Shown here in pieces: positions 1-9,507 of a stretch of 64,000 nucleotides of DNA. The stretch lies in sequence record PP952733.1, one strand, 5' to 3'. Within the stretch, counting starts at the first letter, position 1. The number at the start of each line of letters is the position of its first letter. The notes under the pieces are model-generated. The model worked only from the letters and a program-made list of their open reading frames with translations, was not told where the DNA came from and searched no databases. Origin of the DNA: Escherichia phage vB_EcoM_H12. The position numbers were made by a program, and so were the translations under genes.

Positions 1-1100
1 GCCCCCTTAACATTCTCTTAACAATTTCTTAACAATCCCTACATAGTTATGCTTGTTAGAGACTTGTTAGCCCCTTGTTAAATCTCTGTTAAGACCACGT
101 AAAAGCCTTGTAAGAGCCTTTAGCATAGCCTTTAAAGCCCCTGTAAAGCCCTATAAAGAGCTTTCTACATAGTTGGGGTGTAATTACTAGGAAGAGACTA
201 AAAAGAGCTTATAAGGAGCTATAAAGGGCTTTTAAGAGGGCTATTTAAAAAGTCACTAAGAGGGAAAGGGAACGATAAGAAAAGAGATAGTGACCATGTT
301 AATAGCTTGTTAAAAAGATTAAACACTTGTTAGGAACTTGTTAATTATCTTAACAAAATAACTCTTTAAAATTAACTTGTTAGCTCTTGTTAGTCATCTG
401 TTAAGACTCTGTAAAGCCTATGTATCAACTGTTGAGACTCTGTTACAGCCTTGTTAGTTCTGTTAAGAATCTGTTAAGACCTCTGAAGAGATGTTAAGAG
501 GATGTAGTAGCTGTTAAGAGATTGTTAAGGATATTTTAAAATTTTGCAAAGGGATGGTAAGGGAGCTGTTAAGGGCTACCAAGCAGATATACATCTTTTA
601 CAGATATTTTTCAGTTCCTTCAAAGACCCTAAAAAATGACTTGATAGTCCTATTTTATAAAAATTTTAAAATTCTGAATAATTACCTAAACAGTCTTCTA
701 AAAATACAGGCATAAACAGGCTTATAAGATACCTTGTTAGTACCGTGTTAGACCTTGTGAGATAAGGTCTGTAAAGATATTCCTGTTAAGTTTGTTAAAA
801 CAGTCTATATAGAGGCTTAGTAATACCTAGTGAACACCTATAGAGGGTAACATAGCTGACATAGAGATTAAGAGGTGTATAGGAGCTTCTAAGAGGGTAT
901 AGAGGTATGGTTAAGGTGATTGTATAGGTTGTTAAGAGGGCTTGTTAGAAGGTTTATTAGAAGGCTATTTAGAAGGTTTATACAGAGGGGCTATTAAGAC
1001 CACTAGATAGTTACTAAGATACTATATAGTACTATATAACTATATAGAGAGTAAGATTAAGAAGGTTGTTAAGAAGGGTAGATATTTTATTCACATATGA
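1..1100. repeat. Non-coding array of about 30 short direct repeats (consensus YTGTTARR, often CTGTTAAGA or CTTGTTAG), plus TAAGAGG-like motifs
   Basis: Repeat copies counted by eye, nearly all in plus orientation, several at 10-12 bp spacing (e.g. 375/386/398 and 461/471/483); two inverted copies (TTAACAA) near position 20; no ORF of 60 aa or more in the track for 1-1180. Confidence 0.7.
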
Positions 1101-1180
1101 TGGTGACCCAGAGGTTGGGACAACCGATAAAATTTTATAAAAATTAAAAAGCCCCCAATTAAGGAGGCTCTTAAGATATT

Positions 1181-1774
1181 TTAAATCAGTGTTTCCAGAA
1201 CTGTTTTCAATGATGACTTGGTTGTCTGATAAAAATGAGTAAATCCATTGTTGTTATCAAATACCTGCATCATGATGTCATCTCCCTTGATTGGGTACAC
1301 TCGGATATCATAGTGAAAACCATTAAAGACACAAGAACCACTACAGAATGCTCTAAAGTCATCCACTGAGATATACTCTTCATGTCCTGTGATTTTTATA
1401 CAAACACCTTTACTCGGTCTCTTAGGGTTGATATCTTCCATCACAGACATACTCTGTCCACCAAGAGATACCATAGTGACCACTTTACGGTTCTTCTGTT
1501 TAAAGTACATCTTAACTTTCTGCAAAGTGTCTTCATAGAACGGATAAGACTTCTCTACAAAGACTCCTTCAAGTGGGTCTTTACCATTTTGAACCTCTCT
1601 GTAACCCCGTACTGCAAAGATAATTTGTTCTAACCTATTAAGGCTTTCTTCGTAGAGTGCTCCACGAATATCATTCCAGTCAAGGACTAGGTAGTTACCT
1701 TCAACTTCTTTTAAGTTATCTTTTTCCATAACTATCACACCATTATCGTAAGACTTGGTAATCTGGGACTGCAA
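1181..1774 (-). CDS. hypothetical protein (197 aa)
   Basis: ORF in track; first gene of a leftward co-oriented block; no motif recognised. Confidence 0.5.
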   Translation of the reverse strand: MQSQITKSYDNGVIVMEKDNLKEVEGNYLVLDWNDIRGALYEESLNRLEQIIFAVRGYREVQNGKDPLEGVFVEKSYPFYEDTLQKVKMYFKQKNRKVVTMVSLGGQSMSVMEDINPKRPSKGVCIKITGHEEYISVDDFRAFCSGSCVFNGFHYDIRVYPIKGDDIMMQVFDNNNGFTHFYQTTKSSLKTVLETLI

Positions 1775-2207
1775 ACTTGTTGTCTTTGTTTTTAATGAGG
1801 TCTTCTTTTGTTACAAAGAATGTAAGCCCACATAAGTGTGTATGGTGGCTATCATACTCAAATACTTTAAGTAAGTATTCACCGTCATCATAAACATGCT
1901 CTACTACACCTTTTGCAACAACCTTTCCAGTCTTGAAATCTTTAAGTGGATATACATTACCAACTTTAGGAACTGTTTTCATCTCAGGTTCTTTTAGCTT
2001 CTCACCAGCTTCTACATCACCTAGTAAGTGAGAACTCTCAAACGCTACATATTGCATATAAGCTTCTGAGCATTCCCAGATAAAACAATGTACAAGAGCC
2101 TTAGCAGCATGTCTTGAACAATTCAACTTATCGCAAATCTCTTTGTACATTTCATCTTTAGTTGAGTTGTCGAGCATTGCTTTTCGAACTGTTTCTTTAA
2201 CTTTCAT
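1743..2207 (-). CDS. hypothetical protein (154 aa)
   Basis: ORF in track, short overlap with neighbours typical of phage operons. Confidence 0.5.
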   Translation of the reverse strand: MKVKETVRKAMLDNSTKDEMYKEICDKLNCSRHAAKALVHCFIWECSEAYMQYVAFESSHLLGDVEAGEKLKEPEMKTVPKVGNVYPLKDFKTGKVVAKGVVEHVYDDGEYLLKVFEYDSHHTHLCGLTFFVTKEDLIKNKDNKFAVPDYQVLR

Positions 2208-2625
2208 AAGCTCTCCGAATAACCCTATTAAGCATCTCTAAAGTCAGCTTTCCAGATTCTAAATGTGGCATAATGAGCTTTAAAGCTTCTTCAACATCAT
2301 GCACGACATCTATTATACCTTCTTCATAGGCTTCTACAAGGATATCTTTTACGTTTTGTGGGTTAACTTTTTGCGGTATCACTAGACGCATATCAAACTC
2401 ATTTGCTTGAGGATGGTTCTTACCTTGCCAATAACCGTCTTTGTTAAAGCTGATGTAGTCACCATGATAAAAGTGTATACCATTAGCTTTAAACTTTTCC
2501 AGCACAAGGCATTGAATGGGGTATTCAGTATTCCAATCCCTAACTCCTATAGCCTTCACTGTTGCGATATACTTCTGTGTTTTTGCATCTACGATGTCAA
2601 GTTCTTGACCAGCAATGATTTGCAT
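2197..2625 (-). CDS. hypothetical protein (142 aa)
   Basis: ORF in track; no motif recognised. Confidence 0.5.
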   Translation of the reverse strand: MQIIAGQELDIVDAKTQKYIATVKAIGVRDWNTEYPIQCLVLEKFKANGIHFYHGDYISFNKDGYWQGKNHPQANEFDMRLVIPQKVNPQNVKDILVEAYEEGIIDVVHDVEEALKLIMPHLESGKLTLEMLNRVIRRAYES

Positions 2626-2679
2626 ATTCGCTACCTTCTAAGTTTCTACAAAGGGGCTATCAAGTAACCCCTCAAGTTA

Positions 2680-2904
2680 CTACTCAGACTTTTCAGTCTT
2701 CTTATCGGATTTCTTACTAGTCTTCTTCTCAGCTTTCTGCTCAGGTTCCTTCTCAGAAGTTGCCTTGATAACCATATCAAGAAGCTCTGATAAGTCACTC
2801 TTCAGCAGAGTAACAGGCTGCTCATTGTAGAAGTTTTTGTCAAGATAAACTTTGAACTCTTCAATAGAAGGAAATCCAAAAATTGGTACAGGTGTCTTAA
2901 TCAT
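2680..2904 (-). CDS. hypothetical protein (74 aa), lysine-rich C-terminus
   Basis: ORF in track; C-terminal KAEKKTSKKSDKKTEKSE tail. Confidence 0.4.
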   Translation of the reverse strand: MIKTPVPIFGFPSIEEFKVYLDKNFYNEQPVTLLKSDLSELLDMVIKATSEKEPEQKAEKKTSKKSDKKTEKSE

Positions 2905-2980
2905 TACTTAGTTTCTCCATAGGCATCTTTTAAGATTGCCTTGTTAATCATTTCAGCGATTGCAAAACGAACACATACAG

Positions 2981-3484
2981 CTATAATTGTAGGTTGCATT
3001 CTTTACTTACCTCTTCAAGTTTAACCTCAGAGTCCTTAAGTCGTTTCTTATGAACTCTGAATCTCATTAGTGCGATGATGATACCAACTAAAGGAACAGC
3101 ATACAAGTACCAAACATCATACCCCTTTGCAGTAATCTGTGTAATGGTCAAGTCTTGAGCTATGGAACTGATTGCTGATACTGCCAGTAATGTTGCTAAG
3201 AAAAATGCCAGTACCATTACCGTACTTAAACAACCTCTGGCATGGTGTTCATGCTTAATGCACTTATTCTTTTCGTCAACAACCCTGTTATAGTCGTTTG
3301 TAAAGTCTCTGTAGAAAGCTTTCAAGTATTCTTTATTGTATCCTTCAAAGCAACCTGTACCGTACCAATAATCACCACCAAAATGTGCTATGATACCAGT
3401 GTCCCCATTCGGTTTAGTTACTCTCAAAGAGGTGTGATGACGAGTGTCTTGATAATCTATTTTGTATCTTTCTTCGTAAATCAT
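2981..3484 (-). CDS. putative membrane protein (167 aa)
   Basis: Two hydrophobic helices (VMVLAFFLATLLAVSAISSIA and AVPLVGIIIALMRF) in translation. Confidence 0.5.
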   Translation of the reverse strand: MIYEERYKIDYQDTRHHTSLRVTKPNGDTGIIAHFGGDYWYGTGCFEGYNKEYLKAFYRDFTNDYNRVVDEKNKCIKHEHHARGCLSTVMVLAFFLATLLAVSAISSIAQDLTITQITAKGYDVWYLYAVPLVGIIIALMRFRVHKKRLKDSEVKLEEVSKECNLQL

Positions 3485-3699
3485 TTTCTAATCCCTCTCA
3501 ATCGTTTGTTCCACTCAAGGTCAACAAGTCTTTGTAGGACTTTCCCTCTAGGTGTTACACCTCTTAAGTCTGCATCGTAACAATGGTAAAAGTCACCTTC
3601 AGCGTATCTACCATAGCATTTTCTGATATTCTGACTCCTACGATACTGCTCTAACAGGGACAGTTTGTAGTAATCTTCAACTGTAGTTAGTTTTTTCAT
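3481..3699 (-). CDS. hypothetical protein (72 aa)
   Basis: ORF in track, start overlaps stop of upstream gene. Confidence 0.4.
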   Translation of the reverse strand: MKKLTTVEDYYKLSLLEQYRRSQNIRKCYGRYAEGDFYHCYDADLRGVTPRGKVLQRLVDLEWNKRLRGIRK

Positions 3700-3782
3700 T
3701 CTTTCACCACGTATCTTCTCAAGAAAATAAAAAGGGAACTACCTCTCGATAGCTCCCATCATAGTTAATACTGCATATTTGG

Positions 3783-4364
3783 TCAAGAGTATTTTTTAGG
3801 CAGTAATGCACTGCGCTTGTTACTCTCTTCACTCAATAGTGCGATAAATTCATCACCTTTCCCTTTCCACGGACTGAATGTAGGGATGTGCTCTCGGATA
3901 GCCTCAATCACTGTTTTCAGGGCGTTGTTCTTTAACCACCAATCAGATACTGCCGAAGCTACAATGTAGTAAGCACCATCATCTGTGAAGATTGGCTCAG
4001 AGATACATGGTGAAATCATAGTGGTAATGATAGAACCATTATTCATGTAGTATGTTCTTTTTTCAACCTTGTCAAGCAGTTTATGAAGGTCTGCAAAGAG
4101 ACTTACCACCTCTTTATGGTCAATATCTTTTTCAAGATTTGCCCTGTATTTCAATAGTGCAGCATCAACCTCTTTATCATTGAATTTGAAGTATTGAACT
4201 TCTTCATTCACACATACACTGATGTTGTTGGTGTTTATCGTCAATTTGCACAGTTTGACTGGAGAGTTAATGTTGGTCTGAAAAAGTGCTACACAGCCTT
4301 CTACATTCCCGAAATGTTTGACTAATGTAACTTCTGGTTGGATGTGCTCATGTTCTTCTGACAT
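3783..4364 (-). CDS. hypothetical protein (193 aa)
   Basis: ORF in track. Confidence 0.5.
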   Translation of the reverse strand: MSEEHEHIQPEVTLVKHFGNVEGCVALFQTNINSPVKLCKLTINTNNISVCVNEEVQYFKFNDKEVDAALLKYRANLEKDIDHKEVVSLFADLHKLLDKVEKRTYYMNNGSIITTMISPCISEPIFTDDGAYYIVASAVSDWWLKNNALKTVIEAIREHIPTFSPWKGKGDEFIALLSEESNKRSALLPKKYS

Positions 4365-4708
4365 TATAGTTTCCTCATTAAATACTTTTTAAGTTGTGTG
4401 TTAGGTTTCTCAAAAACTTCTATAGAAGATATCTTGACAGACTCACCACGCATACCTGTATGTTTAAATATGTAATACTCTAACATCCCTATGTACTTTG
4501 CTGGTAAGTCATGTTTGACATAGACTGTTACAGAATCTTCAAATTCAACAACCTTTGTACCATCCTTGTAGTTAAACTCTTTAGGATGGTTGTAGTTGTC
4601 GATGTCGTACATTAAAAAGAGTCTTTTCCGTTGCATGTCAAGCTTATTGGTTAAAGATTCTTTGATATCTGAGAAGTTTTTATATACTATGACATGGAGC
4701 TTACTCAT
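4364..4708 (-). CDS. hypothetical protein (114 aa)
   Basis: ORF in track, abuts upstream gene. Confidence 0.5.
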   Translation of the reverse strand: MSKLHVIVYKNFSDIKESLTNKLDMQRKRLFLMYDIDNYNHPKEFNYKDGTKVVEFEDSVTVYVKHDLPAKYIGMLEYYIFKHTGMRGESVKISSIEVFEKPNTQLKKYLMRKL

Positions 4709-4994
4709 CGTTAAACTCTCTGACGAAGAAATAGTTGACTTTGTTATTACCTACCATAAGGTCAAAGCAGGTGTTCTCAAAAGGTTTATTGTAGGCATCA
4801 TAGGAAGTGTACGTATCAGCTACTTGTTTAGTATTGAGCTTTTTACTTGATGGATTTAAGAGGCCACCATACAGTTTCTTGATAGCCTCTTCTACAACAG
4901 ACCAGATAATTTCGTCAGTAATTTCTTCGTACAGGTCAAGTTCACGCTCTAGTGAGAAGTCACAAATAGGGAAGATAACCTGTACTTTGCTCAT
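4701..4994 (-). CDS. hypothetical protein (97 aa)
   Basis: ORF in track. Confidence 0.45.
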   Translation of the reverse strand: MSKVQVIFPICDFSLERELDLYEEITDEIIWSVVEEAIKKLYGGLLNPSSKKLNTKQVADTYTSYDAYNKPFENTCFDLMVGNNKVNYFFVREFNDE

Positions 4995-5389
4995 TAACGA
5001 ATAACCTGTGTGACTTGAATTGCTTCAGTTACGGACAAATCACCAACTTTCTCTTCTTTGATGAAAGTAAAGGTGAGTTCAACAGGTTCTTGCTCTTCTT
5101 GCTCAACTGGAATACCGTTAAGCTCATCAAAGATTGATTGGGTAGTCCAGTCTTCTCCACCATCTGGATAGTGGATGGCATAAAGAGGAAACTCTAAATT
5201 ATACCAAGCAAAAACAGGACAACCGTCTGCATCATCTCGGCATCTGTGGAGGTACGTATTTGTACCTTCAAAATGCAAATGAAGATTGCCATTCTTCTCA
5301 AATAGAAGAGCATCTCGCAGGTCTAGTTCCTCATTTTCGCTGTAACGACTGACATCAACTTTAACGTGGATATGACTGTTATTATTCAT
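4994..5389 (-). CDS. hypothetical acidic protein (131 aa)
   Basis: ORF in track; Glu/Asp-rich segments. Confidence 0.5.
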   Translation of the reverse strand: MNNNSHIHVKVDVSRYSENEELDLRDALLFEKNGNLHLHFEGTNTYLHRCRDDADGCPVFAWYNLEFPLYAIHYPDGGEDWTTQSIFDELNGIPVEQEEQEPVELTFTFIKEEKVGDLSVTEAIQVTQVIR

Positions 5390-5780
5390 AAAAACCTCTC
5401 TCTGCTTGTTCGATTTTTGCTCTTAAAGTTTCGCAATGCTGTAAATGGTAGTTAGCTTCTTGTTCATGTGTTGCTAACTGCCTTTCAAGAACAGTTTTAT
5501 AGTAACCTGCAAGTTGCTCTTTTGTCAATGGGTGCTCTGAAATAATATCAAGTCCACTTTCACCAAGAGGATTGAATTGTCCATGCTCATTGACATTGTA
5601 AGTCTCAAACTTGAACATACCATTGTTCACAGACTCAATAGGTGACAGTTCAACAAGCTCTACAGTAAACCGTGTATACACCTTGTCGCCTCTTGAAACT
5701 ACATTGTTTCCAATGATGCGTACAAGCGAACCATTACGAGTGTATTTAAAAGTCCCAAAATCACTAGCCCAAAGCTTCAT
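5382..5780 (-). CDS. hypothetical protein (132 aa)
   Basis: ORF in track; AAGGAG-like RBS upstream of start on minus strand. Confidence 0.5.
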   Translation of the reverse strand: MKLWASDFGTFKYTRNGSLVRIIGNNVVSRGDKVYTRFTVELVELSPIESVNNGMFKFETYNVNEHGQFNPLGESGLDIISEHPLTKEQLAGYYKTVLERQLATHEQEANYHLQHCETLRAKIEQAERGFYE

Positions 5781-5791
5781 AGTTTTCTCCT

Positions 5792-5821
5792 TAGAAAATA
5801 AAAAAGGCTCCCGAAGGAGCC
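5792..5821 (-). terminator. Rho-independent terminator-like hairpin downstream of endolysin gene
   Basis: GGCTCC-CGAA-GGAGCC stem-loop (5806-5821) followed on the minus strand by a T-run (plus-strand AAAATAAAAAA). Confidence 0.5.
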
Positions 5822-5831
5822 TATGAAGATA

Positions 5832-6296
5832 TTACTTTGGATATACACTGTCAAGATAAATGTCAGCTTCCATTCTACGTCTGTTTTTCAAGCCGTTTGA
5901 AGTGACCTTCTTACCTTTGACTGTAATCTTGTTCCACCACTGCATAGCTTCTGCACAACCTACCTTATTACCAGCATTGTGGCGCTTGATAAATGTAGAG
6001 TCCTGCATAGCTGTGATACCAATGTTATATGTTTCACTTACAAGTGCATCGAACTCATTCTGAGAAGTTGGAGCCTTGATAGCTTTGTTCACTGCTGCAA
6101 CAAACTTTTCAACATCTGCGAGAAGATACTGTTCAGCTTGTTCAGCCGTGATTTTCATACCCATCTTAACAGGTTTACCAGAAATACTGGTTGTCCCATA
6201 CCCAATTGTTGGGATTCCAGCAGAGTCTTCGTAAGCCTCTAACTTAAGACCCTCAAAGAACTTAATGGCTTCTAAACCTTTTCTTGAGAGTTGCAT
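5832..6296 (-). CDS. endolysin, GH24 (T4/lambda-type) lysozyme family
   Basis: N-terminal motif LEAIKFFEGLKLEAYEDSAGIPTIGYGTT matches the catalytic Glu / TIGYG signature of phage lysozymes. Confidence 0.8.
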   Translation of the reverse strand: MQLSRKGLEAIKFFEGLKLEAYEDSAGIPTIGYGTTSISGKPVKMGMKITAEQAEQYLLADVEKFVAAVNKAIKAPTSQNEFDALVSETYNIGITAMQDSTFIKRHNAGNKVGCAEAMQWWNKITVKGKKVTSNGLKNRRRMEADIYLDSVYPK

Positions 6297-7429
6297 TATT
6301 CACCTCCTGCTGGATTAACTGTAACTGTTGCCGCATTAGATGTTACCGAACCACCTGCGCCAGTTACTACACAAGTGTAGCTTCCTGCATCAGCAGCGGT
6401 TGCACCTTCTTTGGTGTAAGTTGCAGTAGTTGCGTCTGGGATGTTTTCCTCACCCTTCTTCCACTGATAGCCTGTTGCACCTGTTGCCACAACATTCAGC
6501 GTTAAGGTCTCACCTTCAGTGATTTCTTGATTGGTTGGCTGTTGAGTGATTACAGGAAGAGCATTCACAGTTACTGTCGCTGCATTAGATGTGACTGAAC
6601 CACCTGCACCAGTTACAACACAAGTGTAAGAACCTGCATCTGCTGGAAGCGCACCAGTCTTGCTATAGGTAGCATTTGTAGCTGAAGGGATGTTAGAGCC
6701 ATCTTTCTTCCACTGGTAACCTGTTGCACCTGTTGCAGTCACTTCCAAGCTAATGCTTCCACCCTCATTGATGGTCTGGCTAGAAGGTTGCTTGGTAATC
6801 ACTGGTAGAGCATTAACAGTAACTGTTGCCGCATCTGAAGTAACACTTGTCCCAGCCTCTCCAGATACAACACAAGTATATGAACCAGCATCGGCAGGTA
6901 CTACAGATTGTTTTGTGTAAGTTGCAGAAGTGGCACTGGAGATGTCCTCACCATCCTTCTTCCACTGATATCCAGTGGCGTTATTTGCGATAACGTTTAA
7001 GGTCAGTGTGTCACCCTCATTAACCGTTTGGTTTGTTGGTTGCTGAGTAATTGCGGGTGGCTTAATAGCATCCTTCAGCTTAGCATTCAACATTGAGAAC
7101 GGCTTAACCCTCGCCAACCACTCACAATACACTGTATCAACGTCTTTACCATTGATGATTGCATACTGTAAATCCATGAAGAAATCAGCAGTCCTCATCT
7201 GTGCACCAACACTGTAAAGGAGTTCATCACTAAAAGGGACTTTGTAGTCTGGTTTGTAGTCAAACTTCTCAACCTCTGCAATATCAGCTTCAGGCCAATA
7301 TGAGCTATAGGTGAGTGGTAAAATAGCTTCTTGATATGTTCTAAAATCATATCTCTTACCAGCCTTTACATTTGCGATGAAGCCCTTCACAAATTCTTTG
7401 AAGTCTGGGTAAGTCTTTGCTTTAATCAT
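6296..7429 (-). CDS. protein with N-terminal domain plus three tandem Ig-like repeats (377 aa)
   Basis: Three consecutive ~85-aa repeats (ITQQPTNQ...GYQWKKDG...AGSYTCVV...ATVTVN); N-terminal ~120 aa is paralogous to the adjacent 123-aa protein. Confidence 0.6.
   Translation of the reverse strand: MIKAKTYPDFKEFVKGFIANVKAGKRYDFRTYQEAILPLTYSSYWPEADIAEVEKFDYKPDYKVPFSDELLYSVGAQMRTADFFMDLQYAIINGKDVDTVYCEWLARVKPFSMLNAKLKDAIKPPAITQQPTNQTVNEGDTLTLNVIANNATGYQWKKDGEDISSATSATYTKQSVVPADAGSYTCVVSGEAGTSVTSDAATVTVNALPVITKQPSSQTINEGGSISLEVTATGATGYQWKKDGSNIPSATNATYSKTGALPADAGSYTCVVTGAGGSVTSNAATVTVNALPVITQQPTNQEITEGETLTLNVVATGATGYQWKKGEENIPDATTATYTKEGATAADAGSYTCVVTGAGGSVTSNAATVTVNPAGGE
6299..7072 (-). repeat. 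Three tandem ~258-bp coding repeats (Ig-like domain units)
   Basis: Direct repetition visible in the protein and in the nucleotide sequence. Confidence 0.7.
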
Positions 7430-7797
7430 TTCTTTTTAGCCTCTAAACGTGCGTTTAATCTGAAATAGCCTTTATGTTGTGGAGACACATCACTAACAAC
7501 AATACCTTCAACTTTATAACCCTTACCAATTACATACTGGATATCCATAAGAAACGTACCAAGACCAACAATGTGGAACATTGGGTATAGTAACTTATCT
7601 GAATCTGGAAGTTTGATGTCTGGTTTATAGGTAGGTTGCTCGGCAGTTGGTGTAATATCTTCTTCAGGCCATCTACTCATTCTCCATGTTAAAGGTGATG
7701 AAATAACATCGTTAAGATTGTATTTTTCACCATTCTCCACGGAGCGGATATAGGATTGTAGGAAGCAATAAAAGTCTTTTGCACTCTTAGCCTTCAT
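7426..7797 (-). CDS. hypothetical protein (123 aa), paralog of N-terminal domain of the Ig-like repeat protein
   Basis: Shared motifs KDFxxFxxxxIxxVxxGxxY, WPExDI, YKPDxKxPxSDxLLY, FxMDxQYxIxxGxxV with 6296..7429. Confidence 0.55.
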   Translation of the reverse strand: MKAKSAKDFYCFLQSYIRSVENGEKYNLNDVISSPLTWRMSRWPEEDITPTAEQPTYKPDIKLPDSDKLLYPMFHIVGLGTFLMDIQYVIGKGYKVEGIVVSDVSPQHKGYFRLNARLEAKKK

Positions 7798-7844
7798 TAA
7801 ATATCCTTATAAATAGATAAAGGGGCGTTAGCCCCTGTTGACAC

Positions 7845-8435
7845 TTAAGCTTTGGTCTTAAGTAGGTTCTTAAGCTTTTTGAGATTCATGCTCTCGTCAA
7901 ACTTAAAACCAAATCCATTGACATAATCAATGAACTCGGATTTCTTACTAAGTGATAGTGCGTAACTCATATCAAAGTTATTACTTGTTTCTGCGTCTGG
8001 ACTAGAGTTCACATCAAATGAAATTTCTGTAGGTTCTTGTTTGCTGCTTCTCATGTTATCAATCAATAGACAGGTATAGTTTGCTGGATAGAAGTTAACA
8101 CTCCCGTCAACATACCCATACTTATTATTGTGAATGAGGCTGGAAAATACCTTAAGGAATGTTTCTGCGTCGTGGCATACAAGTTTGAATTGACTACATT
8201 CACCAAGAGCCACTAAAGAGTAAGGACTTTCACTATCAATGTCATAATTCGGATTTGATGTTGTAACCGTCACACGCATCAGGTTATTGGCAATAGTCTT
8301 CTGCTTAAAAGAATTTGGAACATAGTGAAGACCTCTGTCACACTGATTAACTAACTCTTTCAATAGGTCGTTTGCATATGGTGAATTAATTGATACAGAG
8401 CCATCACTATTGTAATTAAAACTTACTGTTAACAT
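7845..8435 (-). CDS. hypothetical protein (196 aa)
   Basis: ORF in track. Confidence 0.5.
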   Translation of the reverse strand: MLTVSFNYNSDGSVSINSPYANDLLKELVNQCDRGLHYVPNSFKQKTIANNLMRVTVTTSNPNYDIDSESPYSLVALGECSQFKLVCHDAETFLKVFSSLIHNNKYGYVDGSVNFYPANYTCLLIDNMRSSKQEPTEISFDVNSSPDAETSNNFDMSYALSLSKKSEFIDYVNGFGFKFDESMNLKKLKNLLKTKA

Positions 8436-8662
8436 TTTTCAGTTCTCCTGCGATTTATAATTTTGCTGCAATAGAGAAACGAAGTAAACTCACTGGAAGA
8501 AACCATTAAGTGTTGTTCACTAGATTGAGCCATTGCCCTGAAATACATTCCAGTCAAAGCATCATAGTGACTATTCTTTCCAATTGAGGTTATATAGCCA
8601 TGACTCTTTGCAGTTTGATATAAATCTATAATATCTGCGATTTCTAATTGGGAACTACACAT
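8429..8662 (-). CDS. hypothetical protein (77 aa)
   Basis: ORF in track; GAGG-type RBS upstream on minus strand. Confidence 0.4.
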   Translation of the reverse strand: MCSSQLEIADIIDLYQTAKSHGYITSIGKNSHYDALTGMYFRAMAQSSEQHLMVSSSEFTSFLYCSKIINRRRTEKC

Positions 8663-8805
8663 AGATAATCCTCTTGTCTTCTGTAATTTTGAAAGAACAG
8701 GTACAGACCAATTTCAGAGGATGAATAGTAGAGTAACTCTACCCTTTTTGATTCCTTACAGTGATTGGTATTTTTACCTTTCTTCGGGTTATTTGATTTT
8801 CTCAT
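8644..8805 (-). CDS. small basic protein (about 53 aa; start moved to internal ATG)
   Basis: Internal ATG preceded by AAGGAG; track ORF 8644..8826 starts further upstream. Confidence 0.3.
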   Translation of the reverse strand: MRKSNNPKKGKNTNHCKESKRVELLYYSSSEIGLYLFFQNYRRQEDYLCVVPN

Positions 8806-8903
8806 TAAGTCTCCTTTGTAGAACAAGGCAGACCTACAGCTTTAAGTAAGATGGTACAGTAATCCATACAACAAGTCAAGAACTATTGCAAGTTAAAAAA
8901 GTT

Positions 8904-8928
8904 GTTGACAAAGTACTTGACAAGGTGT
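8904..8928 (+). promoter_or_regulatory. Conserved 25-bp promoter-like element GTTGACAAAGTACTTGACAAGGTGT at divergent junction
   Basis: Two TTGACA boxes 12 bp apart after an A-tract; near-identical copy (one mismatch) at 50936-50960. Confidence 0.55.
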
Positions 8929-9054
8929 AGGCTTATAAATACTTAGAAGATAACTTAAAAGGTTCCTCTAAAAAGGCTATTTAAACAGATATCTTTCTGG
9001 ATATCTATCTTTTATCTTAAAAGCCTTTTAAGAGGTCTTATAAGAGGCATACCA

Positions 9055-9426
9055 ATGAAAAACAGAACAAACAAAGGCCAGTTTAAAAAAGGCCAGTCTG
9101 GAAACCCATCTGGAAGACCAAAAGGCTCTCGTAACAAAAGCTCACTTGTAAAAGCTCAACTGACCATTGATAATTCTGCTGAGTTTGCTGCAAAGTTGTT
9201 TGAAGCGATTGTTACAAGGGACGCTGCTAAGCTTGCAGAGTTTGGTCTAAACACAGATGACGTAACCATCAAGAGCATGATTGAGGTCGGTAAAACTATC
9301 ATGACTCACTCAGCAGGTGAGATGAAAGCAATTGCAGCAGATACTAAGAAGACCCCTGATAATGGTGGTCAGTCACAGACAGATAACAAACCAACGTTCT
9401 CTGCTGTAGCTACTCTCAAAAAATAA
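9055..9426 (+). CDS. hypothetical protein (123 aa) with basic Gly/Pro-rich N-terminus
   Basis: AAGAGG RBS; N-terminal KGQFKKGQSGNPSGRPKGSRNK. Confidence 0.5.
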   Translation: MKNRTNKGQFKKGQSGNPSGRPKGSRNKSSLVKAQLTIDNSAEFAAKLFEAIVTRDAAKLAEFGLNTDDVTIKSMIEVGKTIMTHSAGEMKAIAADTKKTPDNGGQSQTDNKPTFSAVATLKK

Positions 9427-9507
9427 TTTTAAAAGGTGTTGACAGGCTCTACAAAGTTGCTCTAAAGTCTGTCACATCAAACAACAAATGAGAGAAGAGA
9501 GTAAAAT

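What the first reader, a model, noticed from the sequence alone, without database searches (positions are those of the whole stretch)
1181..5780. Leftward block of eleven small unknown ORFs
Eleven tightly packed, co-oriented ORFs of 72-197 aa have no recognisable motifs. They sit next to the repeat array and upstream of the endolysin, and include one membrane protein and one strongly acidic protein. Such blocks in lytic phages commonly encode host-takeover or anti-defence functions.
Basis: inference. Interest (0 to 1): 0.4.

Follow-up and report, generated by a model that had tools for sequence, protein, structure and literature searches.

The report
Conserved unknown-gene block in Felix O1-like phage
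This is a real, tightly packed block of twelve small non-structural genes shared by Felix O1-like phages; it is already annotated and knocked out in relatives, its functions remain unknown, and the evidence points to mid-infection accessory genes, not proven anti-defence genes.

Summary
The window is a Felixounavirus (Felix O1-like E. coli myophage), and it starts at the genome's left end.

**Observation.** The block at 1181-5780 (minus strand) is real. It holds 11 ORFs plus a conserved 31-aa twelfth gene, is about 97% coding, and is under purifying selection (dN/dS 0-0.55). It is syntenic in more than 200 Felixounavirus, Suspvirus and Mooglevirus genomes and is almost absent elsewhere.

**Layout.**
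- Three translationally coupled sub-operons.
- Two composite sigma70-like promoter/terminator elements.
- One closing terminator.

**No family assignment.** Pfam, NCBIfam, PADLOC and PDB sequence searches name nothing. PHROGs place every gene in an unknown-function family.

**Published data on relatives.**
- Felix O1 RT-PCR puts most homologues at 25 min, together with the endolysin.
- None is listed among the virion proteins found by mass spectrometry.
- In Bas63 knockouts, only g114 and g116 are named, as conditionally important on strain S17-1.
- None is named among the counters to the 12 defence systems screened.

**New here.**
- The ORF at 1743-2207 has an N-terminal helix-turn-helix fold and a small beta-barrel.
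- The membrane protein at 2981-3484 carries a possible DivIVA/GpsB-like motif.
- The "D-Ala-D-Ala carboxypeptidase" label on the acidic protein is unsupported.
- The ORF at 3783-4364 matches no known fold.

**Verdict.** An ordinary, already-known accessory block. The anti-defence reading is unproven.

The parts
1147..1172 (-). Intrinsic terminator that closes the block
   Evidence: 10-bp stem plus T-run. Folds at -15.2 kcal/mol, z -2.9. A terminator is annotated at the same place in ASO1B.
1181..1729 (-). ORF 1, 182 aa (the mechanical ORF runs to a TTG at 1774, 197 aa). Homologue of Bas63 g112 and Felix O1 gp24. Function unknown.
   Evidence: phrog_4330, E 9e-106. The N-terminal 80 aa also hit three other unknown PHROGs. 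dN/dS 0.20-0.26. The profile finds nothing in PDB.
1743..2207 (-). ORF 2, 154 aa. Homologue of Bas63 g113 and Felix O1 gp25. N-terminal tri-helical HTH domain, disordered linker, C-terminal small beta-barrel.
2197..2625 (-). ORF 3, 142 aa. A variable member: absent from Bas63 and Felix O1/FO1a.
   Evidence: phrog_7193. No tblastn hit in Bas63. Only 24-36% identical in Sf14 and SUSP2. It has the highest dN/dS of the block, 0.30-0.55.
2651..2673 (-). Conserved GC hairpin without a T-run, between ORF 4 and ORF 3
   Evidence: The AGGGG/CCCCT stem is kept in SUSP2 and Sf14 while the loop differs. Folding is weak: z -1.95.
2680..2904 (-). ORF 4, 74 aa. Homologue of Bas63 g114 and Felix O1 gp26. Conserved 50-aa N-domain plus a Lys/Glu-rich tail.
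   Evidence: phrog_4457. dN/dS 0-0.27. Alignment A10. Reported as more essential on S17-1 (PMC11482910).
2904..2999 (-). Twelfth gene, 31 aa. Homologue of Bas63 g115.
   Evidence: phrog_6279, E 3e-23. Annotated in E9, HMD-P10, Bas63, SUSP2 and Sf14. 72-76% identical across genera, dN/dS 0.12-0.20.
2981..3484 (-). ORF 5, 167 aa. Homologue of Bas63 g116 and Felix O1 gp27. Inner-membrane protein: an 83-aa N-terminal soluble domain with a DivIVA/GpsB-like motif (aa 41-74), two transmembrane spans, and a charged C-tail.
   Evidence: Hydrophobic windows. Alignment A5. The top PDB profile hits are GpsB, E 0.02. hhalign gives 77% probability, P 2e-5, against 0.1-0.3% for two control comparisons with other block proteins. 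Pfam DivIVA is not detected. Reported as more essential on S17-1.
3481..3699 (-). ORF 6, 72 aa, basic (pI 9.8). Homologue of Bas63 g117 and Felix O1 gp28.
   Evidence: phrog_4459. Charge. Alignment A6. No PDB hit.
3724..3786 (-). Composite element: sigma70-like promoter (TTGACC-17-TATGAT) followed directly by a 10-bp GC hairpin and TTTTTATTTTCT
   Evidence: The hairpin folds at -16.3 kcal/mol, z -4.5. Conserved in Bas63 and ASO1B. This spot holds an extra gene in Felix O1, HMD-P10, SUSP2 and Sf14.
3783..4364 (-). ORF 7, 193 aa. Homologue of Bas63 g118 and Felix O1 gp30. Strongly conserved, with no recognisable fold.
4364..4708 (-). ORF 8, 114 aa, basic. Homologue of Bas63 g119 and Felix O1 gp31.
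   Evidence: phrog_4040. dN/dS 0.01-0.12. No PDB hit. Listed at 5 min in the Felix O1 RT-PCR.
4701..4994 (-). ORF 9, 97 aa, acidic (pI 4.5). Homologue of Bas63 g120 and Felix O1 gp32.
   Evidence: phrog_4385. dN/dS 0-0.2. No meaningful PDB hit.
4994..5389 (-). ORF 10, 131 aa, strongly acidic (pI 4.44, net -17). Homologue of Bas63 g121 and Felix O1 gp33 (Felix01p066). Variable N-half, invariant C-half, and a poly-Glu linker of variable length.
   Evidence: Charge. 127 clusters, all 58% identical or more and all without a precomputed Pfam domain. Alignment A2. No PDB or Pfam hit.
5382..5780 (-). ORF 11, 132 aa. Homologue of Bas63 g122 and Felix O1 gp34. First gene of the upstream sub-operon.
   Evidence: phrog_4266. 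No Pfam hit. Alignment A9. No PDB hit.
5795..5854 (-). Composite element: sigma70-like promoter (TTGACA-17-TATCTT, overlapping the end of the endolysin gene) followed directly by a 7-9 bp GC hairpin and TTTTTATTTTCT
   Evidence: The hairpin folds at -12.9 kcal/mol, z -3.9. A promoter is annotated here in ASO1B. The hairpin and the -35 box are conserved in SUSP2 and Sf14.

Best explanation
The block is a lineage-specific module of twelve small non-structural accessory genes. It is shared by the enterobacterial Ounavirinae (Felixounavirus, Suspvirus, Mooglevirus) and sits at the left end of the genome.

**Transcription (inferred from sequence).** It is read leftward by the host sigma70 RNA polymerase, from promoters built into terminator/promoter junctions. 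One junction sits behind the endolysin gene and drives 5382-5780 through 3783-4364. The second sits at 3724-3786 and drives 3481-3699 through 1181-1729. A terminator at 1147-1172 ends the block. Within each unit the genes are translationally coupled.

**Timing and role.** Expression is mainly mid-infection, together with the endolysin. This is shown only by end-point RT-PCR in Felix O1. The products act inside the infected cell rather than in the virion. The PhageMaP text treats g114 and g116 as non-essential genes that become important on one host, and gives no verdict on the other block genes.

**Most likely working parts (inferred):**
- A helix-turn-helix protein (1743-2207) that binds DNA or the transcription machinery.
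- An envelope-directed sub-operon (3481-3699 to 2680-2904) built around a two-span inner-membrane protein with a DivIVA/GpsB-like dimerising domain next to the membrane. This sub-operon tunes infection in particular hosts.
- A five-gene, very strongly constrained operon (5382-5780 to 3783-4364) whose products probably contact conserved phage or host machinery.

None of these activities has been demonstrated.
For: - *Identity and conservation.*: 271 phage records hold the block, 216 of them with at least 80% of it, and it is syntenic in three genera.
- *Real genes.*.
- *Operon layout and signals.*. Only these two sites in the 64-kb window pair a T-run-flanked hairpin with an adjacent 10-of-12 promoter match.
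- *Timing.* Felix O1 gp24, 25, 26, 28, 32, 33 and 34 (plus gp29, a gene this window lacks) and the lysin gp35 peak at 25 min (PMC3185647 Table 3; gene numbering mapped through FO1a).
- *Non-structural.* No block homologue is in the abstract's list of Felix O1 virion proteins or in the Sf14 table of structural gene products with mass-spectrometry detection.
- *Conditional importance.* PhageMaP describes the 66-80 kb region as genes of varying essentiality, with g114 and g116 more essential on S17-1.
- *HTH fold.*.
- *DivIVA-like motif.*, with controls.
- *Strong constraint on the upstream operon.*.
Against: - No biochemical function is shown for any member.
- The RT-PCR timing is gel-based and noisy. 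It lists the major capsid gene as 'early', splits one coupled operon over 5, 25 and 60 min, and does not list gp27.
- The promoters are consensus matches only. The region-wide promoter count is no higher than in shuffled sequence (28 found, 26 expected).
- The DivIVA-like match is marginal: E 0.02 against PDB and no Pfam hit.
- An HTH fold alone does not prove DNA binding.
- Codon usage is ambiguous. RSCU correlates best with the structural genes (r 0.90 against 0.79-0.80 for replication genes), but GC3 is closer to the replication genes.
- Only 2 of the 12 proteins could be modelled.
Confidence: 0.55

Rival explanations
1. Anti-defence island. Most members would be inhibitors of bacterial immune systems, for example the acidic protein as a DNA mimic against restriction or nucleases.
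For: - The proteins are small orphans, and one is strongly acidic with pI 4.44.
- There is presence/absence and allele variation at the 1181-2625 end, and there are insertion hot spots.
- g114 and g116 are more essential only on S17-1. From my own knowledge, S17-1 carries integrated RP4 and Mu, either of which could encode an exclusion function.
- Other Bas63 accessory genes are proven counters.
Against: - The text of the Bas63 PhageMaP screen on 12 defence systems names no block gene as counter or trigger.
- Bas63 is reported as remarkably sensitive to several RM systems despite carrying the acidic protein.
- No Pfam or PHROG annotation links any member to a known anti-defence family.
- The core genes show dN/dS of 0-0.1, and their synteny is fixed across three genera.
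- Peak expression is at 25 min rather than immediately after infection.
Confidence: 0.2
2. Lysis or envelope module. The membrane protein at 2981-3484, with the neighbouring small genes, would be the missing holin/antiholin, a superinfection-exclusion function, or a lysis-timing function that works with the adjacent endolysin.
For: - The Felix O1 paper reports no holin-lysin cassette and does not identify the holin.
- 2981-3484 has two transmembrane spans and a charged C-tail.
- The block follows the endolysin, and most homologues peak with it at 25 min.
- PhageMaP's authors also suggest a lysis role for gp116.
Against: - A terminator and six genes separate it from the endolysin.
- The Felix O1 authors' holin candidates (gp79, 116, 118, 119, 131) do not include gp27.
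- Spanins are annotated elsewhere in Bas63.
- g116 is described as non-essential except on S17-1, which is unlike a sole holin.
- This reading would explain at most 3-4 of the 12 genes.
Confidence: 0.15
3. Morphogenesis helpers or minor virion proteins, co-expressed with the neighbouring Hoc-like decoration protein.
For: - The block has the same orientation as the decoration gene at 6296-7429 and its N-domain paralogue at 7426-7797.
- The homologue of 3783-4364 (gp30) peaks at 60 min, like gp36 and gp37.
- RSCU correlates best with the structural genes, r 0.90.
Against: - No block homologue appears in the abstract's list of Felix O1 virion proteins or in the Sf14 table of structural gene products.
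- PhageMaP places the uniformly essential structural segment at 0 to about 21 kb of Bas63, far from this block.
- PhageMaP describes this region as interspersed genes of varying essentiality, not as a uniformly essential segment.
Confidence: 0.07

Closest known systems
Homologous block in Felixounavirus relatives: Felix O1 gp24-gp34 and Bas63 (JohannRWettstein) g112-g122
   Same: Gene order, sizes and overlaps are the same. Amino-acid identity to Bas63 is 83-100%. The endolysin and the Hoc-like decoration gene sit on the same flank.
   Different: This window has an extra 142-aa ORF (2197-2625) that Bas63 and Felix O1 lack. It lacks the Felix O1 gp29-type gene between 3699 and 3783.
Clusters of small non-essential genes in large lytic coliphages, such as the many small ORFs of phage T4, including those around its lysozyme gene (recalled from my own knowledge of T4 genetics)
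   Same: Many short, overlapping, co-oriented ORFs. They are individually dispensable in laboratory hosts and needed only under certain conditions.
   Different: No sequence or fold relationship was found. Timing here appears to be middle rather than immediate-early. No member has a demonstrated target.
LuxR/FixJ-type and sigma-70 region 4 tri-helical HTH domains
   Different: There is no sequence-family membership (no Pfam hit). The domain is fused to a small beta-barrel instead of a receiver or sigma domain. Binding to DNA or RNA polymerase is untested.
DivIVA/GpsB N-terminal domain of Gram-positive cell-division proteins
   Same: The signature spacing F..GY..E(V/L)..F..(D)(V/F)..DY coincides with the invariant stretch of 2981-3484.
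   Different: The Arg of the RGY motif is Glu here. The domain is tethered to two transmembrane helices. The host is Gram-negative and, from my own knowledge, has no GpsB or DivIVA. The match is below Pfam detection.

Membership tests
D-alanyl-D-alanine carboxypeptidase / peptidase M15 (the name several GenBank records give the homologue of 4994-5389) | Sequence match to an M15/VanY family profile | tested here: not met
   No Pfam or NCBIfam hit at E up to 0.1. None of the 120 listed homologues carries a precomputed Pfam domain. The profile finds no peptidase in PDB.
D-alanyl-D-alanine carboxypeptidase / peptidase M15 | Conserved zinc ligands (His...Asp and a further His) | tested here: not met
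   His6 and His8 of 'HIHVKVD' are replaced by E/Q/P/K/D in relatives. His73 is the only near-invariant His, and there is no invariant H-x-H (alignment A2).
Holin (for 2981-3484) | Small protein with one or more transmembrane spans and a charged C-terminus | tested here: met
   Two hydrophobic spans and a Lys/Arg/Glu-rich tail.
Holin (for 2981-3484) | Placement in a lysis cassette, and a requirement for lysis | tested here: not met
   Six genes and a terminator lie between it and the endolysin. Its Bas63 homologue g116 is described as non-essential except on S17-1 (PMC11482910). Lysis itself was not assayed.
DivIVA/GpsB N-terminal domain (for 2981-3484, aa 41-74) | Signature motif and profile similarity | tested here: inconclusive
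   PDB profile search: the top three hits are GpsB, E 0.02. hhalign gives 77% probability, P 2e-5, against 0.1-0.3% for two control comparisons with other block proteins. Pfam DivIVA is not detected in any of six members.
HTH DNA-binding domain, LuxR/sigma-4-like (for 1743-2207, aa 1-56) | Tri-helical HTH fold | tested here: met
HTH DNA-binding domain, LuxR/sigma-4-like | Sequence-family membership, and DNA or RNA polymerase binding | not testable with these tools
   No Pfam hit. Binding needs an experiment.
Known anti-defence or defence protein families | Profile match to a described family | tested here: not met
   Pfam and PHROGs for all members. NCBIfam and PADLOC for ten ORFs; 5382-5780 and 2904-2999 were not scanned there. 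No dedicated anti-defence library was available.
Virion structural proteins | Detection in purified particles | not testable with these tools
   From the literature only. The abstract's list of Felix O1 virion proteins holds gp23 and gp36 but none of gp24-34. The Sf14 table of structural gene products with mass-spectrometry detection lists gp20 but none of gp5-18.

The most novel reading that the evidence does not exclude
The sub-operon 3481-3699 / 2981-3484 / 2904-2999 / 2680-2904 could be a previously unrecognised envelope-targeting module. It would be built around an inner-membrane protein that carries a DivIVA/GpsB-type domain, in a phage of Gram-negative hosts. The phage would need it to overcome a barrier specific to certain hosts, for example an RP4- or Mu-encoded function in S17-1. 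Separately, the five-gene operon 5382-5780 to 3783-4364 could encode a novel-fold, highly constrained protein set that acts on a conserved host machine.
Probability: 0.15. Interest if true: 0.55.

Novelty: already known. Interest (0 to 1): 0.25.

Why it matters
Felix O1-like phages are widely used for Salmonella and E. coli typing, biocontrol and therapy, yet this roughly 4.6-kb conserved block remains a functional blank. If the host-specific requirement for the g114 and g116 homologues reflects a real counter to a plasmid- or prophage-borne barrier, it would help predict and engineer host range. As it stands, the block is a typical 'dark-matter' accessory region. Knockout data already exist for a close relative. 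The finding adds little beyond two fold-level leads and the correction of a propagated mis-annotation.

Tried and rejected
**Searches that returned nothing useful**
- Sequence-profile searches of every ORF gave only sub-threshold noise (CsoS2_M, UBA_HOIP, DUF5092 and SNAD1, at E 1e-3 to 0.1). This covers Pfam and PHROGs for all ORFs, and NCBIfam and PADLOC for ten.
- The weak SNAD1 (AID/APOBEC-like deaminase) hit on 3783-4364 was rejected. The protein has no H-[AV]-E or PC-x-x-C motif, and the hit is below the curated cut-off.
- A concatenated 1,489-aa query against all PDB sequences gave zero hits at E up to 1.
- Profile searches of eight families against PDB gave nothing apart from the marginal GpsB hit.
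- An exhaustive HMM search for the family of 3783-4364 returned only 13 single-domain relatives of similar size (one is a 52-aa fragment) and no informative fusions.
- A BFVD Foldseek search with the HTH protein returned only uncharacterised phage proteins.
- Rfam gave no RNA family match in 1-9500.

**Ideas tested and dropped**
- Paralogy within the window or between block members: none found.
- The 31-aa gene as an o-spanin or lipoprotein: rejected on inspection. 'IAVC' is a poor lipobox, the leader is only 8 residues with no charged n-region, and the gene is not embedded in a partner gene.
- Extra genes that relatives carry at the insertion spots: no Pfam match above any family's curated cut-off.
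- Codon usage as a clock for temporal class: ambiguous.

**Data not available**
- The PhageMaP per-gene fitness tables are not held, so only statements in the text could be used.

Full report
**What the window is.** Megablast of the first 8 kb finds 255 phage records. Nearly all are Felix O1-like myophages of Escherichia, Salmonella and Shigella. The best is Escherichia phage vB_EcoM_E9, at 95.3% identity over 100% of the query. The window carries 26 tRNA genes at 11-16 kb, as these phages do. Several complete genomes start where the window starts. In vB_EcoM-Pr103Blw, the first 581 bp are annotated as a short direct terminal repeat. The window therefore begins at the left physical end of a Felixounavirus genome. 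The 'repeat array' next to the finding consists of 10-12-nt CTTGTTAAGAC-type repeats across about 1-1100, and it is this terminal, non-coding region.

**The observation.** All eleven ORFs exist as described, on the minus strand. They are joined by overlaps of 1-19 nt, with only three gaps of 13, 54 and 83 nt. Purine-rich Shine-Dalgarno-like stretches precede most of the starts (by eye).
- They are genes, not chance ORFs. Each matches one PHROG family end to end, at E 1e-43 to 1e-106.
- Each shows purifying selection against E9, ASO1B, Bas63, SUSP2 and Sf14, with dN/dS from 0 to 0.55.
- A twelfth gene of 31 aa (2904-2999) was missed. It matches phrog_6279, is annotated in five relatives, and is 72-76% identical across genera.
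- The first ORF is annotated in close relatives from the ATG at 1729 (182 aa), not the TTG at 1774.
- The membrane protein (2981-3484, two hydrophobic spans) and the strongly acidic protein (4994-5389, pI 4.44, net -17) are confirmed.
- The block lies downstream of the endolysin (5832-6296, Phage_lysozyme, E 7e-41) in the direction of transcription.

**Distribution and evolution.**
- The block alone matches 239 phage records at the DNA level, 186 of them over at least 80% of its length.
- A tblastn search with the concatenated proteins finds 271 records, 216 of them with at least 80%.
- Gene order is the same in Suspvirus SUSP2 and Mooglevirus Sf14, at 24-76% amino-acid identity. The endolysin, for comparison, is 84% identical.
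- Outside the Ounavirinae, the rows examined show two matches. One is a 22%-identical relative of 3783-4364 in a Yersinia myophage. The other is a stand-alone copy of the first ~58 residues of 1743-2207 in Klebsiella T7-like phages. Two Hafnia records and two others in the tally were not inspected.
- Constraint is uneven. The homologues of Bas63 g118, g119, g120 and g122, and of g114 and g116, have dN/dS of 0-0.1 within the genus. The ORF at 3783-4364 is 100% identical in protein to Bas63 at dS 0.33.
- By contrast, 1181-1729, 1743-2207 and 2197-2625 run at 0.15-0.55.
- 2197-2625 is absent from Bas63 and Felix O1.
- Relatives carry extra genes at two spots. One lies between 3699 and 3783 (Felix O1 gp29 type). 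The other lies between 2625 and 2680 (ASO1B_031).
- No member is a paralogue of another member, or of anything else in the window.

**Transcription signals.** Two composite elements stand out.
- At 5854-5795 there is TTGACA-17-TATCTT, with the -35 box inside the last codons of the endolysin gene and the -10 box just past its stop codon. A GC hairpin (z -3.9) and TTTTTATTTTCT follow directly, then the ribosome site of 5382-5780.
- At 3786-3724 there is TTGACC-17-TATGAT, again followed directly by a hairpin (z -4.5) and the same T-rich tail.
- In the whole window, only these two hairpin-plus-T-run sites have an adjacent 10-of-12 promoter match.
- The elements are conserved in Bas63 and ASO1B. 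The post-lysin hairpin and its -35 box are also conserved in SUSP2 and Sf14.
- My inference is as follows. A transcript arriving from upstream terminates at the hairpin. A transcript starting about 7 nt after the -10 box begins inside the 5' arm of the hairpin and escapes termination.
- A terminator at 1147-1172 closes the block.
- These are consensus matches. The overall promoter count in 1-9500 is no higher than in shuffled sequence.

**Published experiments on homologues.** The FO1a record keeps the gene numbering of the Felix O1 paper, which allows a map:

| Felix O1 gene | Window ORF |
|---|---|
| gp24 | 1181-1729 |
| gp25 | 1743-2207 |
| gp26 | 2680-2904 |
| gp27 | 2981-3484 |
| gp28 | 3481-3699 |
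| gp29 | absent here |
| gp30 | 3783-4364 |
| gp31 | 4364-4708 |
| gp32 | 4701-4994 |
| gp33 | 4994-5389 |
| gp34 | 5382-5780 |
| gp35 | endolysin |
| gp36 | Ig-like protein |

- *Timing.* Whichard et al. (PMC3185647) report end-point RT-PCR. gp24, 25, 26, 28, 29, 32, 33, 34 and 35 are maximal at 25 min, gp31 at 5 min, and gp30, 36 and 37 at 60 min. gp27 is not listed. The assay is crude, since it lists the major capsid gene as early.
- *Virion content.* The paper's abstract lists gp23 and gp36 among the virion proteins, but none of gp24-34. The Sf14 table of structural gene products with mass-spectrometry detection likewise lists only gp20, the Hoc-like protein, from this neighbourhood. The Ig-like protein at 6296-7429 is most likely the homologue of the hexamer-centre decoration protein seen by cryo-EM in Bas63 and Sf14.
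- *Knockouts.* In Bas63 the block is g112-g122. The PhageMaP knockout study (PMC11482910) describes positions of about 66-80 kb as interspersed small hypothetical genes of varying essentiality. It singles out g114 and g116 as more essential on S17-1 than on three other K-12-type hosts.
- *Defence screen.* That study's screen on 12 defence systems names counters g77, g79/80, g84/85 and g130, and triggers g40 and g123 (the endolysin). No block gene is named in the text. The per-gene tables are not held.
- *Restriction.* Bas63 is described as remarkably sensitive to several restriction-modification systems.

**What the proteins look like.**
- *No sequence-level family.* No ORF reaches any curated threshold in Pfam, NCBIfam or PADLOC. 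None hits a PDB sequence.
- *3783-4364.* It has only 15 clusters, all at least 56% identical, in the 5.8-billion-protein set. It has 13 representatives in the exhaustive 1.84-billion search. Its AlphaFold2 model is mediocre (pLDDT 64.8) and matches no solved fold.
- *2981-3484.* Its most conserved stretch (aa 41-74, W-Y/F-GTGCFEGY-x-KEYLKAFYRDF-xx-DYN) is the only part of any block protein to find something in PDB. The top three hits are GpsB chains, at E 0.02. hhalign against DivIVA/GpsB N-termini gives 77% probability and P 2e-5, against 0.1-0.3% for two control comparisons with other block proteins. Pfam's DivIVA model does not detect the stretch. I treat this as a lead.
- *4994-5389.* Several GenBank records call it a D-alanyl-D-alanine carboxypeptidase. 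There is no profile support for that name. The candidate His ligands are not conserved. The name should be dropped. Its C-terminal half is nearly invariant. A poly-Glu linker varies from 2 to 11 residues.

**Interpretation.** The best-supported reading is a lineage-specific, non-structural accessory module. It is expressed mainly in mid-infection from its own sigma70-type promoters, and at least two members matter only on particular hosts. The block contains a probable DNA- or transcription-machinery-binding HTH protein. It also contains an inner-membrane protein with a coiled-coil domain next to the membrane, and a strongly constrained five-gene operon of unknown fold.
- The anti-defence idea remains possible for some members. 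The S17-1 phenotype is the best hint. From my own knowledge, S17-1 carries integrated RP4 and Mu.
- That idea is not supported by the one systematic screen available, by the evolutionary pattern of the core genes, or by the timing.
- A lysis or envelope role could explain the membrane sub-operon only.
- A structural role is unlikely.

**Verdict.** The block is already annotated in hundreds of genomes and has been knocked out in Bas63. The window adds a close variant (one extra ORF, one fewer than Felix O1). The new points are modest: an HTH fold, a possible DivIVA-like motif, two terminator-promoter junctions, a missed 31-aa gene, and a mis-annotation. Interest is low to moderate.

Noticed in passing
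window 2904-2999 (-): A conserved 31-aa gene (MQPTIIAVCVRFAIAEMINKAILKDAYGETK, phrog_6279). It overlaps the end of the membrane-protein gene by 19 nt and the start of the next gene by 1 nt. It is kept across three genera.
   Followed up: partly
window 5795-5854 and 3724-3786 (-): Two near-identical composite signals: a sigma70-like -35/-10 pair, followed directly by a GC hairpin and TTTTTATTTTCT. They are the only such promoter-plus-hairpin pairs in the 64-kb window. They look like terminator/promoter junctions that insulate the sub-operons.
   Followed up: partly
window 1-1100: A dense array of 10-12-nt CTTGTTAAGAC-type direct and inverted repeats in a non-coding stretch. Its first ~580 bp correspond to the short direct terminal repeat annotated in phage Pr103Blw, so the window starts at the physical genome end.
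   Followed up: partly
window 4994-5389 (-): The acidic protein carries a poly-Glu linker whose length varies from 2 to 11 residues among relatives. Its 'D-alanyl-D-alanine carboxypeptidase' name in many GenBank records has no profile or motif support.
   Followed up: yes
window 7426-7797 and 6296-7429 (-): The 123-aa ORF is a paralogue of the N-terminal (capsid-binding) ~120 aa of the neighbouring 377-aa Ig-domain protein (cross-hits phrog_4463 and phrog_3995). The Ig-domain protein appears to be the Hoc-like hexamer decoration protein of Bas63 and Sf14, but many records still call it a tail protein.
   Followed up: partly
window 3699-3783 and 2625-2680; L002 5186-5731; L008 10082-10768; L009 6064-6804; L003 4141-4413: Two insertion hot spots inside the block. 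Felix O1, HMD-P10, SUSP2 and Sf14 carry an extra 181-246-aa gene at the first spot. ASO1B carries an extra 90-aa gene at the second. None of these extra genes matches Pfam above the curated cut-off.
   Followed up: partly
GenBank GU169904.1 (Staphylococcus phage SA1), 140374-141790: A 147-kb record labelled as a Staphylococcus phage holds a 94%-identical copy of this enterobacterial phage block. The likely explanation is a chimeric or contaminated assembly.
   Followed up: no
L012 (Klebsiella phage HALO_ER43) 2531-2710: A 59-aa stand-alone homologue of the HTH N-domain of 1743-2207 sits between the RNA polymerase inhibitor (gp2-like) gene and the gp2.5-like SSB gene of T7-like Klebsiella phages. 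The BFVD search also lists small homologues in the coliphages EC1-UPM and SU10.
   Followed up: partly
window 2651-2673 (-): A GC hairpin without a T-run between two genes. Its stem is kept in SUSP2 and Sf14 although the loop differs. It may be an RNA processing or stability element.
   Followed up: no
window 9.3-10.8 kb (+), approximate position by synteny with Bas63 g130: By synteny, the gene just upstream of the tRNA cluster should be the homologue of Bas63 g130, a validated counter of the ppl defence system in PhageMaP. The proven anti-defence gene nearest to the finding would therefore lie outside its coordinates. The ORF itself was not examined in this window.
   Followed up: no
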